Source of the DNA: Escherichia coli
GTDB taxonomy: Bacteria > Pseudomonadota > Gammaproteobacteria > Enterobacterales > Enterobacteriaceae
DNA length: 64,000 nucleotides
NCBI RefSeq assembly: GCF_030013595.1
Contig: NZ_CP122768.1
Direction: 5' to 3' (one strand)
Shown here: positions 49,701 to 52,700 of the stretch, piece after piece
Numbering within the stretch: position 1 is the first letter of the stretch
Layout of the letters: each line of letters opens with the position of its first letter
Position numbers: made by a program

Positions 49701-52700
49701 CTGGACGGTTTTACATCGCGCGGCTTTGACGATCACAGCAAACTCTTCTTTCCTCAATCTGATGCTCACTTTGTGCCGCCAACGGTAACGGAAGAGGGCA
49801 TCGTCTGGCCGGAAGGACCACGCCCACCGTCGCGTGACTATACGCCGCTGTATGACGAACTACGCCATGAACTGGCGATTGATTTCTTTATTCACGACGG
49901 TGGCGTCGCCAGCGGCTGGGCGATGCAGGCGCAACCGGGCGATAAACTCACGGTGGCAGGTCCGCGCGGTTCGCTGGTGGTGCCAGAGGATTACGCGTAT
50001 CAGCTGTATGTCTGCGATGAATCCGGAATGCCCGCACTGCGCCGCCGCCTGGAAACGTTGAGCAAACTTGCCGTTAAACCGCAAGTTAGCGCGCTGGTTA
50101 GCGTGCGGGATAACGCCTGTCAGGATTATCTCGCGCACCTTGATGGTTTTAATATCGAATGGCTGGCACATGATGAGCAGGCAGTAGATGCGCGTCTGGC
50201 GCAGATGCAAATCCCTGCCGATGATTACTTCATCTGGATAACCGGCGAAGGCAAAGTCGTTAAGAATTTAAGCCGCCGCTTTGAAGCGGAACAGTATGAT
50301 CCACAGCGGGTACGTGCAGCGGCTTACTGGCACGCAAAGTAACTGATATATAAAAAGAAAAAGGCTGACGATTTCTCGTCAGCCTTTGCTATGTCTGGCC
50401 CTGCTGTCTCTTAATTGGTTGTGTAATTAATTGAAATTAAACAGGTAAATGCAATTTATTTTTTATCGATATGCCTTTTTGTATGCCTATTGGGAAAAAC
50501 ACGCTTTCTTCAACAGGGAATAAAAGCCGCTTTTATGGTGTTTTGAAACGGGTTTTAAAATGGCGCTCGTGGTGCTCTCGGGCACTCAATGGCGCTCTGT
50601 GATGTGGCTGGTGGTATGTGGCCGCCATGCATAATGGGGCTGATTTTGTTCATGGCCCGGCAGCGGGTGAGCATTTTTTACCATATTCAGGGTAAAAATG
50701 GGCGAAAAAGTTCATTTCTGGCATGGCCTGAAATGCCACGCAGCCCGCGCCGCGTGTGCTCTTGCCGGGGAAAACGGCGCGGAATAATGACCGCCACCCC
50801 ACCTTATGGCGGGCAGTCCCACGAAATCCCGGTTATTTCCGTTTATTCCCGGATTAATCCCGCCTTCTCCCGCATTCTCCCGGCTGTTCCCGGAATTAAT
50901 CGCCGTGGGGTGGTGGTTATCTGGTGTGGTCGTAGTTCTGCCGTAGTCGTTCACCCTCAGCGCAATGACGCGGTTTTTTAACGCCGCTGGTAACGCAACG
51001 CGGGCAGGTCATGACGTGGCTGATATACGCATCACGGGCAGCCAGCCACGTCGCTGACGGGGCGCACATATCCGCCAGCGCCTGGCCGTTGCTGGTGGTG
51101 TTGTCTTCCGGCCATGTTTCGGGCTGGTGCGCTTCCGGTAAATCCGGTGCAGGTAATGCCCGGATAAACTCACACAATGCATCCGGCAGGCTGAATAACT
51201 TATGCATAAATCTGATGTTCTGAATCGCTGAAAACGTGCGTTTTATGGCGTTTTTTCGTGATTTCTGCGTGTTCTGATGTGCTCATTTCGCTGTATCCCT
51301 TGTGTGGCGCGGGCTGCGCGTGTGTTTCGGTGTTCTTTTTTACCGCCAGAAAACGGTAATCAGGCATATAAACACGGCTGTAAGCCGCGCCGCGTCTGGC
51401 TTCGCGTGATTTTGTGCGTCAAAAAGTGCATTTTTGCCCTTAAAAAGCGTTATTCGTAATTCACTGGTAAATGCTCCGCAGGCCGCGCCATTGCTGGCCT
51501 TTTCGCTATTCTGTGTGGTTTTGCTGTTTAACCCGTTTTGCACACTAAAATTGCCTTGCATCCCGCGCCACGTAAGGGATTGCCGGGTTTTTATGTTGCG
51601 TTTTTTGCCGTGCGTAATATTGTGCAAGTTGGTGGGACTGGTGGGAACTGTGGGAACCGCCTAGAACCACGCGGCTTTCAGTGGTTCCCACCAGTTCCCA
51701 CGTTGGCTTTTTGTGGGAACCGTGGCGGTTATTTTTTGTTCTTTGCGGTTCCCACCAGTTCCCGCAGAGTTCCCACTCAAAAACGAACAATAATCATACT
51801 GATGGTTTTATTATTTACTGATTTATATATGTTTTATTTTTACGGTTCCCACAGTTCCCACCAGTCCCACCACTTTTTCAGTTTTTAAAAACGCAATTTT
51901 TGTGAATTATTCATCAATTGCGAATAACAATGCATTCTGGCCGATGGCGTAAACGCGGTGTTTCTCCCCGTTAACGGAAACGCGTTTTGTGTATCGGCGT
52001 TTCCCGTCCGTGTCGCGGTCAACAATCGCGCCAGCATCGTCAAGACTGGCCGCTATGCGTTTCAGGTCGTAGCCGCTGGCCGCCTCACATAGTGCTTCCG
52101 GTAAAAACCAGTAAACCCGCTCGCCGTTGCTCCCCGGTCGCCACCATCCGGCGCGGGTGCTTACTGGTTCGCTGTATGTGCTGCCCCCTTCAAAGCGTGA
52201 AGCATGGCGGGCGATAAACCCCGCGACGGCCCGGAGTATTTTCACGTCCTCCGATTGCCCCCGCCCACGATAGTCCGCCCACGCATCAAACATCGCTTTC
52301 ACTGCCTCCAGTGCTTCGCCCTGTTTCCACGGCAGAATCCCGGCAGTTATCGCCATTTCCCCGGCCAGTGCGCACAGTGTGAAACGCGCGGCGGCGCGTG
52401 CCTCCTGTCCGGTGCTTACGGGGAATTGTTCGCGCAGTATGGCGTACATATCCGCCAGCGTCTGGCCGTTGCTGTCGGTGCTGGTGGTGTCACTTTCATT
52501 GCGGGAAATCAGCCAGCGCACAAACTCCGGCCCGGCGTGGCCGTAATGGGTAGCCGCATTACCGCGCAGTGTTTCGGCAAATTTCCGGCCTGCTCCCCGG
52601 CGTTCTGTGTCGTTGTCGGGGTTGTGGGGTAGTGCCATTCCGTGAAGACAGTCAAATGCCCCGTAAAGCCGCTGTGCCGGAATATCCAGTAACCGCATTT

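What the first reader, a model, noticed from the sequence alone, without database searches (positions are those of the whole stretch)
51061..51096. 36-bp near-identical repeat shared between the island tail and the helicase gene
ggcg(c/t)acatatccgccagcg(c/t)ctggccgttgctg occurs at 51061-51096 and again at 52441-52476 inside the helicase gene, about 1.4 kb apart and in the same orientation. At the protein level it corresponds to SNGQ(A/T)LADM in both. This may be a footprint of recombination between related satellites or a remnant of a second element.
Basis: seen in the sequence. Interest (0 to 1): 0.35.

Follow-up and report, generated by a model that had tools for sequence, protein, structure and literature searches.

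The report
Helicase snippet copied into neighbouring gene
About 45 bases of a small phage-satellite island's helicase gene were copied long ago into the floppy linker of a small neighbouring gene, leaving a short direct repeat on either side of the island's replication origin: a real but ordinary recombination scar.

Summary
The repeat is real: 51061-51096 and 52441-52476 match at 34/36 nt, and at 38/43 if extended. No match was seen in 100 shuffles. Both copies are read in the same frame on the minus strand. One lies in a 96-aa ORF (50917-51207). The other lies in a DUF927/Cch-type replicative helicase (51907-53745). Both genes belong to an 8.3-kb PICI-like island integrated at tRNA-Ile.

There is no similarity on either side of the repeat, so it is not a remnant of a second helicase or a second element. 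The peptide GQTLADM(Y/F)A is native to the helicase in every relative examined. ORF96 homologues outside the E. coli / E. albertii / Salmonella clade carry an unrelated Pro/Thr-rich linker at that position. The best reading is therefore one old event: a helicase-to-ORF96 ectopic conversion or template-switch patch of about 45-50 nt in a disordered linker. A later 9-nt deletion followed in the E. coli lineage.

The two copies flank the iteron origin. One 692-nt draft contig shows exactly the deletion junction that recombination between them would give; no complete genome does.

Both copies end in a Chi octamer. Chi is the commonest 8-mer of the island.

Verdict: an ordinary recombination scar of low interest.

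The parts
51061..51103 (-). Repeat copy A, the recipient. It lies inside ORF96, at codons for NTTSNGQALADMCA in the linker of the protein.
   Evidence: AF2 pLDDT is below 50 for residues 24-38 and about 60 for 41-47
52441..52492 (-). Repeat copy B, the donor. It lies inside the helicase gene, at codons for DTTSTDSNGQTLADMYA. It carries 9 nt (52475-52483, TCGGTGCTG) that copy A lacks in E. coli but that the Salmonella ORF96 copy retains.
50917..51207 (-). ORF96 (RefSeq WP_000549241, hypothetical protein). It has a conserved N-terminal helix (LPDALCEFIR), a variable disordered linker and a conserved C-terminal domain (AWLAARDAYISHVMxCPxCVTSGxKxPRHC). Its function is unknown. In related islands it sits next to a Mor-family gene.
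51907..53745 (-). DUF927 replicative helicase of the Cch / SaPI-Rep type. Residues 416-424 form a variable Thr/Ser/Asp linker. The conserved C-terminal region starts at GQTLADMYAILREQF.
   Evidence: Pfam DUF927 at 8e-83; PDB 5DGK and 8TCH by sequence; family alignment A2
51626..51875 (.). Origin-like region between the two repeat copies. It has a 30-nt perfect inverted repeat (51630-51659 / 51843-51872), GGTTCCCAC iterons and an AT-rich core around 51790-51840.
51091..51098 (+). Chi octamer GCTGGTGG at the 3' end (on the + strand) of copy A. It equals the Thr-Thr-Ser codons ACC-ACC-AGC on the coding strand.
52480..52487 (+). Chi octamer at the corresponding end of copy B.
50396..58788 (-). The whole island, from the att core TGGCCCTGCTG (50396-50406) to tRNA-Ile(CAT) at 58713-58788. 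Gene order: integrase, hypothetical, AlpA-like HTH, C4/isrK RNA cassette with an Icd-like ORF, two hypotheticals, toprim primase, helicase, origin, ORF96.

Best explanation
The repeat is the scar of one old, short ectopic transfer of DNA. About 45-50 nt of the island's helicase gene, coding DTTSTDSNGQTLADM(Y), were copied 1.4 kb downstream. That stretch is the end of a variable linker plus the start of the conserved C-terminal region. The copy landed in the same orientation and frame in the disordered linker of the small gene ORF96, where it replaced a Pro/Thr-rich stretch. The most likely mechanism is inferred, not shown: short-patch gene conversion or replication template switching. It would have been primed by microhomology at GACACCACCA on one side and about CGCC on the other. 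The patch was tolerated because it lies in an unstructured linker. In the E. coli, E. albertii and S. Concord lineage the ORF96 copy later lost 9 nt, and in the window strain it gained one more substitution (ACG to GCG). As a by-product, the island now carries direct repeats on either side of its origin and of the helicase C-terminus. These contain a 29-nt exact block in most relatives but only 15 nt in this window. They are a substrate for a 1380-bp deletion that would fuse the helicase to ORF96 and remove the origin.
For: 1. The repeat is real and lies at the DNA level.
2. The donor is the helicase. GQTLADM(Y/F)A occurs at this position in every enterobacterial helicase relative examined, including islands whose ORF96 homologue lacks it: Lelliottia L009, Citrobacter L010 and Tenebrionibacter L016. 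More distant helicases keep an aligned segment of different sequence there.
3. The recipient is ORF96. Nine homologues at 46-56% identity (Lelliottia, Enterobacter, Citrobacter, Salmonella and unnamed Logan contigs) have GDATAAPPSFPPP-type linkers between the conserved TWPE and AWLAARDAY flanks. Only the E. coli / Salmonella clade has the patch.
4. The Salmonella L007 ORF96 copy keeps the extra 9 nt. Read by eye from the sequences, it matches the E. coli helicase at 45 of 46 nt, which gives the original patch length.
5. This was a single event followed by independent drift. The TGC/TAC difference is fixed in every lineage. Lineage-specific changes are not shared between the two copies: window ORF96 GCG, L005 helicase GTG, Salmonella helicase (TTS)x4.
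6. ORF96 minus the patch has no profile similarity to the helicase.
7. The patch lies in a low-confidence linker of the AF2 model.
8. Non-patch ORF96 genes already carry GACACCACC in the linker and CCGCCCCCG at its end, which offers the proposed microhomologies.
9. A consequence may have been observed. In contig L006, bases 1-121 are identical to the L004 helicase and bases 93-692 match the L004 ORF96 and tail (identical over the 160 nt compared; 99.3% over 84-692). The crossover lies inside the 29-nt exact block.
Against: The mechanism is inferred from end-states only, and no intermediate has been seen. The junction microhomologies are short (10 nt and 4 nt) and were reconstructed from present-day relatives, not from the true ancestor. 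The same reading frame in both genes could hint at selection on the peptide, although the prior for the same frame is 1 in 3. The L006 junction comes from a single 692-nt draft contig, so an assembly or library chimera cannot be excluded. None of the 31 complete E. coli genomes carrying the island has that junction.
Confidence: 0.75

Rival explanations
1. The repeat is a remnant of a second element or a decayed second helicase gene. On this view the tail of the island is what is left of a tandem or related satellite, and the 36 nt are its best-preserved piece.
For: Several islands of this family can share one genome site type (ileX and yicC-dinD sites). The tail is partly non-coding and is prone to rearrangement.
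Against: Identity drops from 94% to background at both edges, with no flanking similarity. ORF96 is an intact member of a conserved family with conserved flanks around the patch. The hhalign probability of ORF96 against the helicase C-terminus is 0.16%. Decay would not leave 36 nt at 94% inside otherwise unrelated sequence.
Confidence: 0.04
2. The match reflects a convergent or shared protein motif. On this view SNGQxLADM is a functional peptide selected independently in both proteins.
For: The reading frame is the same in both genes. AF2 draws a short helix over QALADMC in ORF96.
Against: All synonymous positions of the shared residues are identical, with P of about 7e-4 given the peptide. 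The motif is absent from most of the ORF96 family. The region has low pLDDT. ORF96 is disrupted at or near the patch in several strains: an IS26 insertion, a deletion and a frameshift.
Confidence: 0.03
3. The two copies form a functional cis-element at the DNA or RNA level. Candidates are two Chi-capped sites bracketing the origin that direct RecBCD/RecA processing, a programmed origin-deleting switch, or two targets of a regulator or antisense RNA.
For: Both copies end in Chi, and they bracket the origin. Chi is the most frequent 8-mer of the island. A junction of the predicted deletion exists in one draft contig. The island carries a C4 antisense RNA system.
Against: Related islands (Lelliottia, Citrobacter) have the same helicase and origin architecture with only one copy. 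Copy A is destroyed in C311, ETEC4090 and the strain encoding P0015. No complementarity of the repeat to the C4/isrK region appeared in the blastn of the tail against the rest of the island, both strands. In this window the exact identity block is only 15 nt.
Confidence: 0.06
4. The repeat is kept similar by continuing concerted evolution, that is, repeated gene conversion between the two sites, and not by a single old event.
For: The copies are 94-97% identical in several lineages whose ORF96 genes differ by up to 16%. Chi next to the patch could stimulate exchange.
Against: Lineage-specific changes are not shared between the copies of one island. Examples are the fixed TAC/TGC difference, the window ORF96 GCG, the L005 helicase GTG, the 9-nt indel and the Salmonella (TTS)x4 expansion. 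The patch is short, and its helicase copy is conserved at the nucleotide level across genera in any case.
Confidence: 0.1

Closest known systems
Short-patch ectopic gene conversion / templated mutagenesis by replication template switching between imperfect direct repeats. This is known from E. coli and phage T4 genetics; cited from my own knowledge, no paper read here.
   Same: A few tens of nucleotides are copied from a nearby non-allelic donor, with no flanking homology. The junctions fall in short microhomologies. The donor is unchanged and the recipient acquires a cluster of changes at once.
   Different: Here the event is inferred from comparative genomics, not selected in a reporter assay. 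It replaced a whole linker segment of about 45-50 nt in an unrelated gene, not a correction of a quasi-repeat. The mechanism (RecA-dependent or polymerase switch) is not established.
Deletion between short direct repeats, either RecA-dependent above a minimal processing segment of about 23-27 bp or by RecA-independent slipped mispairing. Cited from my own knowledge.
   Same: Direct repeats 1380 nt apart contain a 29-nt exact block in most relatives. A contig with the exact recombinant joint exists.
   Different: The joint is seen only in one short draft contig. In the window strain the longest exact block is 15 nt, so the rate should be lower there.
PICI-type phage satellites of Gram-negative bacteria, such as EcCICFT073, EcCIEDL933 and EcCIMP1 (PMC6092414, title and abstract seen; PMC11773190, passages read). 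Also the Rep/Cch MCM-like helicases of SaPIs and SCCmec (PDB 8TCH, 5DGK).
   Same: The host element has integrase, an AlpA-like HTH, primase, a DUF927 helicase and an adjacent iteron origin. It is integrated at a tRNA, is about 8 kb long and has no structural or lysis genes.
   Different: No packaging or capsid-redirecting module was recognised. No helper phage or induction has been shown. The island carries a P1/P4-type C4 antisense RNA and Icd-like cassette. The repeat itself is not a described feature of these elements.
Chi (GCTGGTGG) recombination hotspot
   Same: Exact Chi octamers cap both copies and occur at 1.4 per kb in the island.
   Different: Chi activity (RecBCD attenuation, RecA loading) was not tested. 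In the repeat, Chi is simply the Thr-Thr-Ser codons ACC-ACC-AGC.

Membership tests
Ectopic conversion / template-switch patch | The sequence is native (ancestral) at the donor site | tested here: met
   GQTLADM(Y/F)A is present in all enterobacterial helicase relatives, including islands without the ORF96 copy.
Ectopic conversion / template-switch patch | The sequence is derived at the recipient site: homologues lack it while their flanks stay conserved | tested here: met
   Nine ORF96 homologues have a P/T-rich linker between the conserved TWPE and AWLAARDAY flanks.
Ectopic conversion / template-switch patch | Identity is at the nucleotide level, including synonymous sites, with sharp edges | tested here: met
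   34/36 in the window and 35/36 in L004. Codon identity has P of about 7e-4. There is no flanking similarity.
Ectopic conversion / template-switch patch | Microhomology at both junctions | tested here: inconclusive
   GACACCACC (left) and CGCC (right) can be found in non-patch ORF96 genes and in the helicase. They are short, and the ancestor is unknown.
Remnant of a duplicated helicase gene or second element | Extended, colinear homology beyond the best-preserved block | tested here: not met
   blastn with word size 7 finds nothing beyond the 43 nt. hhalign probability is 0.16%. The LPDALCE / LPEALCE similarity is non-colinear, with E = 0.13.
PICI-type phage satellite (host element) | Tyrosine integrase at one end and site-specific integration with att repeats | tested here: met
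   Integrase with Pfam Phage_integrase at 5e-28. Integration next to tRNA-Ile(CAT). The att core TGG(C)CCCTGCTG is repeated at 50396-50406. Most E. coli genomes have an empty site.
PICI-type phage satellite (host element) | AlpA-family regulator downstream of the integrase | tested here: inconclusive
   The HTH protein at 55982-56296 hits Phage_AlpA at 18.0 bits, below the 21-bit cut-off, and HTH_17 at 19.6 bits, below 27. Homologues in related loci are flagged Phage_AlpA (weak).
PICI-type phage satellite (host element) | Primase and replicative helicase with an adjacent iteron origin | tested here: met
   Toprim_3 and DUF927 hits. Sequence relatives in PDB are 5DGK and 8TCH. Iterons and an AT-rich core lie at 51626-51875.
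PICI-type phage satellite (host element) | Induction, packaging and transfer by a helper phage | not testable with these tools
   No packaging or capsid-redirection gene was recognised. This needs experiments.
P1/P4-type C4 antisense RNA target repeats | Complementarity of the repeated sequence to the C4 RNA of the island | tested here: not met
   C4 lies at 55613-55700 and its a1b1 targets at 55789-55841. blastn of the tail, including copy A, against 51901-58800 on both strands gives no match there.
Chi hotspot | Exact GCTGGTGG octamer | tested here: met
   51091-51098 and 52480-52487 on the + strand.
Chi hotspot | RecBCD-dependent stimulation of recombination or protection of DNA ends | not testable with these tools
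   This needs genetics in recBCD backgrounds.

The most novel reading that the evidence does not exclude
The patch may not be a neutral scar. One possibility is that two Chi-capped direct repeats bracketing the origin act as a built-in recombination switch. That switch would excise the origin together with the helicase C-terminal domain and produce a helicase::ORF96 fusion, as in contig L006, perhaps to shut down or alter satellite replication. The other possibility is that ORF96 displays a helicase-derived peptide that competes for a partner of the helicase linker.
Probability: 0.05. Interest if true: 0.55.

Novelty: new member of a known kind. Interest (0 to 1): 0.2.

Why it matters
The finding matters little by itself. 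It is a clean natural example of a templated patch of about 45 nt moved between unrelated genes of one mobile element. The donor, the recipient, the approximate age and the later decay can all be read from comparative data.

It also marks a fragile spot in the island. Several changes cluster at or next to the Chi/Thr-Thr-Ser tract of the patch:
- a 9-nt indel;
- a frameshift allele;
- an IS26 insertion;
- a Chi-microhomology deletion endpoint;
- a possible origin-deleting crossover.

The side observation may be of more general interest. Chi is the commonest octamer of this satellite family, which suggests selection for RecBCD protection or recombination proficiency in satellites that carry no recognised RecBCD inhibitor.

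Tried and rejected
1. Extended homology around the repeat: blastn with word size 7 of the tail against the rest of the island, plus a local alignment, found none.
2. Deep homology of ORF96 to the helicase C-terminus, prompted by LPDALCE / LPEALCE: hhalign probability 0.16%, so treated as chance.
3. Function of ORF96: no hit in Pfam or PHROGs. The AF2 model has mean pLDDT 72.7. Foldseek against the PDB found nothing with E below 6.
4. More divergent islands in complete E. coli genomes: the distant blastn found only the same 31 genomes, all at 96% identity or more.
5. The deletion junction in complete genomes: none found.
6. The search of helicase C-terminal homologues returned only 6 mostly partial proteins. 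These were enough for the alignment but not a census.
7. The exact-pattern scan of species-representative genomes added E. albertii (two copies) and Tenebrionibacter (helicase copy only), plus two unrelated chance matches.
8. The inverted partial match at 53071-53101 (15/16 nt to the repeat core) lies in the ATPase-domain coding sequence. It was treated as probably chance and not pursued.
9. The second matching places in five genomes (H52-H56) were not located; the 43-kb neighbourhood of H54 does not contain one.
10. The literature search for Chi enrichment in satellites found nothing specific.
11. A TYCCSG pattern scan of the whole window was uninformative.

Full report
**Setting**

The window is E. 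coli chromosome (aer, nfeR, nfeF, then mug, rpoD and dnaG). Between nfeF and tRNA-Ile(CAT) at 58713-58788 lies an island of about 8.3 kb, absent from most E. coli. Of 5426 complete genomes, 5403 match only the 49 bases at the left junction, and 31 carry the island module.

All island genes are on the minus strand. In order they are:
- a tyrosine integrase (57250-58524);
- a hypothetical protein;
- an AlpA-like HTH (55982-56296; Pfam scores below cut-off);
- a C4 antisense RNA / isrK / a1b1 cassette with an Icd-like ORF;
- two hypothetical proteins;
- a toprim primase (53726-54919);
- a DUF927 helicase (51907-53745; Pfam 8e-83);
- an iteron and AT-rich origin-like region (51626-51875);
- a 96-aa ORF (50917-51207), annotated as hypothetical in RefSeq.

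By sequence the helicase is related to the Cch helicase 5DGK and to the SaPI protein 8TCH. The att core TGG(C)CCCTGCTG is repeated at 50396-50406. The island is therefore a PICI-like satellite without a recognisable packaging module. Helper dependence is untested.

**The observation**

The two copies are at 51061-51103 and 52441-52483. They are 1380 nt apart and in the same orientation. The pattern occurs twice in the window and never in 100 shuffles. With a 9-nt gap the match runs on for 7 more bases.

Both copies are read in the same frame on the minus strand: NTTSNGQALADMCA in ORF96 and STDSNGQTLADMYA in the helicase. There is no similarity on either side of the block. Given the shared peptide, identical codons have a probability of about 7e-4.

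**Which gene is the donor**

I aligned the ORF96 family (17 hits, alignment A1). All members share an N-terminal LPDALCEFIR-type helix and a strongly conserved C-terminal AWLAARDAYISHVMxCPxCVTSGxKxPRHC domain.

Between the conserved TWPE and AWLAARDAY flanks the family splits in two. The homologues at 46-56% identity (Lelliottia, Enterobacter, Citrobacter, Salmonella and unnamed Logan contigs) have a Pro/Thr-rich linker such as GDATAAPPSFPPP. Only the E. coli / Salmonella near relatives have TTS(TDN)NGQTLADMCAP.

The helicase behaves the opposite way. In every related island the helicase carries GQTLADM(Y/F)A(I/L)LREQF at this position. That includes the Lelliottia and Citrobacter islands, whose ORF96 lacks the motif, and a Tenebrionibacter helicase. 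The motif is preceded by a Thr/Ser/Asp linker of variable length: DTTSTDSN, DTTSTTSTTSTTSN, DTTRDNGD or TSTTSGNGD. More distant helicases keep an aligned segment of different sequence there.

So the sequence is native to the helicase and derived in ORF96. The ORF96 family without patch-bearing members shows no profile similarity to the helicase C-terminus (hhalign probability 0.16%). This excludes a decayed helicase copy.

**Extent and age**

The Salmonella island L007 has an ORF96 copy that still contains the 9 nt missing in E. coli (TTSTDNNGQTLADM). Read by eye from the sequences, it matches the E. coli helicase at 45 of 46 nt. The original patch was therefore about 45-50 nt long. The E. coli, E. 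albertii and S. Concord ORF96 genes later lost 9 nt.

The patch occurs in ileX-type and yicC-type E. coli islands, in E. albertii and in two Salmonella islands. Their helicases differ by 2-6%, so the event predates their split.

The copies have since drifted independently:
- TGC against TAC is fixed in all lineages.
- The window ORF96 alone has GCG for ACG.
- The L005 helicase alone has GTG.
- The Salmonella helicase expanded (ACCACCAGC) to four copies.

This argues against continuing homogenisation and against a paired functional element.

**Mechanism (inferred)**

Non-patch ORF96 genes already contain GACACCACC at the start of the replaced stretch and CCGCC(C/T)CCG at its end. The helicase has GACACCACCAGC and TACGCC at the corresponding edges.

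A template switch or a short conversion tract could be primed by about 10 nt of microhomology on one side and resolved in about 4 nt on the other. That would give exactly the observed product. The AF2 model of ORF96 (mean pLDDT 72.7) has pLDDT below 50 for residues 24-38 and a confident C-terminal domain from residue 50. The patch therefore sits in a linker where it is likely to be tolerated. dN/dS for the family is 0.3-0.6, so ORF96 is a real gene but is weakly constrained.

**Consequences**

The copies bracket the last 177 codons of the helicase, the origin and the first 35 codons of ORF96.

The spacing is exactly 1380 nt in L003, L004, L005 and in E. albertii L014. Of the 31 complete E. coli genomes, 29 match a 1.7-kb query spanning both copies in one full-length piece. 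The other two are C311 and ETEC4090, described under "A fragile spot" below. No complete genome has a deletion between the copies.

One protein hit (P0007) is a helicase::ORF96 fusion. Bases 1-121 of its 692-nt contig (L006, GCA_021079785.1) are identical to the L004-type helicase. Bases 93-692 match the L004-type ORF96 and tail: identical over the 160 nt compared, and 99.3% over 84-692. The crossover therefore lies inside the 29-nt exact block. This is either a real origin-deleting recombinant or an assembly or library chimera, and I cannot decide which. In the window strain the longest exact block is only 15 nt.

**A fragile spot**

On the + strand both copies end in Chi (GCTGGTGG, the same bases as codons ACC-ACC-AGC on the coding strand). 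Several independent changes sit at this tract:
- In C311, 50616-51087 is deleted between two GGCTGGTGGT microhomologies.
- In ETEC4090, an IS26 composite carrying aph(3')-Ia and aac(3)-IVa is inserted at 51085-51095.
- P0015 is a frameshift allele within ACCACC.
- The 9-nt indel and the (TTS)n expansion are at the same tract.

Chi is the single most frequent 8-mer of the island: 12 copies in 8.3 kb, against 19 in 55.7 kb of flanks (Poisson P = 4e-5). Markov models of order 1-4 expect 0.4-3.3 copies. It is also the most frequent 8-mer, or tied for it, in three of the four related islands examined.

**Verdict**

The feature is an ordinary, probably neutral, short ectopic conversion or template-switch scar, with a possible side effect on island stability. 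Interest is low (0.2). It is a new instance of a known kind of event.

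Noticed in passing
window 50399-58712; also L007, L009, L010, L012: Chi (GCTGGTGG) is the most frequent 8-mer of the island: 12 copies in 8.3 kb, 7 on the + strand and 5 on the - strand. The flanks have 19 in 55.7 kb, and Markov models of order 1-4 expect 0.4-3.3. Related toprim+DUF927 islands have 0.9-1.7 Chi per kb, against 0.1-0.3 per kb in three of their four flanks (L007's 2.8-kb flank has none). An island with a different replication module (L011) has 0.35 per kb. The held literature has no report of Chi-rich satellites.
   Followed up: partly
window 55613-55841 (- strand): A P1/P4-type immunity RNA cassette lies upstream of the Icd-like/ash ORF. It comprises C4 antisense RNA (55613-55700, 79.6 bits), isrK (55749-55828, 60.7 bits) and the c4 a1b1 target (55789-55841, below the gathering score). 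Source.
   Followed up: no
window 51626-51875: An origin-like region lies directly downstream of the helicase. It has a 30-nt perfect inverted repeat (51630-51659 / 51843-51872), at least 6 GGTTCCCAC/GTGGGAAC iterons and an AT-rich core around 51790-51840.
   Followed up: partly
window 50827-50893: An array of TCCCG(G/C) motifs with a 10-nt period, about 6 units (TRF rows 50827-50862 and 50858-50882). It lies in the non-coding tail just downstream of ORF96 and may be a protein-binding or packaging site.
   Followed up: no
L001 (E. coli ETEC4090) 2605-5951, equivalent to window 51085-51095: An IS26-bounded resistance segment (aph(3')-Ia, aac(3)-IVa) is inserted into ORF96, exactly in repeat copy A.
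   Followed up: partly
L002 (E. coli C311) 6082-6093, equivalent to window 50604-50615 / 51088-51099: A 472-bp deletion of the tail and the 3' part of ORF96, between two GGCTGGTGGT (Chi-containing) microhomologies.
   Followed up: yes
L004, L005, L009-L012: ORF96 homologues sit next to a Mor-family transcription activator gene, and in the E. coli yicC-dinD islands also next to a PerC-family gene, an ssb fragment and an island-borne tRNA-Tyr. The Salmonella island L011 keeps Mor and ORF96 but has a different replication module. ORF96 therefore travels with Mor, not with the helicase.
   Followed up: partly
window 53071-53101: A partial inverted match to the repeat core inside the helicase ATPase-domain coding sequence: 15/16 nt with 51079-51094 and 24/31 with 52459-52489. 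Probably chance.
   Followed up: no
L007 7651-7785 (Salmonella helicase): The helicase linker contains (ACCACCAGC)x4, coding TTSTTSTTSTTS. That is four tandem Chi complements, showing length instability of this tract.
   Followed up: partly
window 1-64000: The window as a whole has 31 Chi octamers, against 2.2 expected from dinucleotide shuffles. This is the usual E. coli enrichment, but about 40% of the octamers lie in the 13% of sequence that is island.
   Followed up: partly
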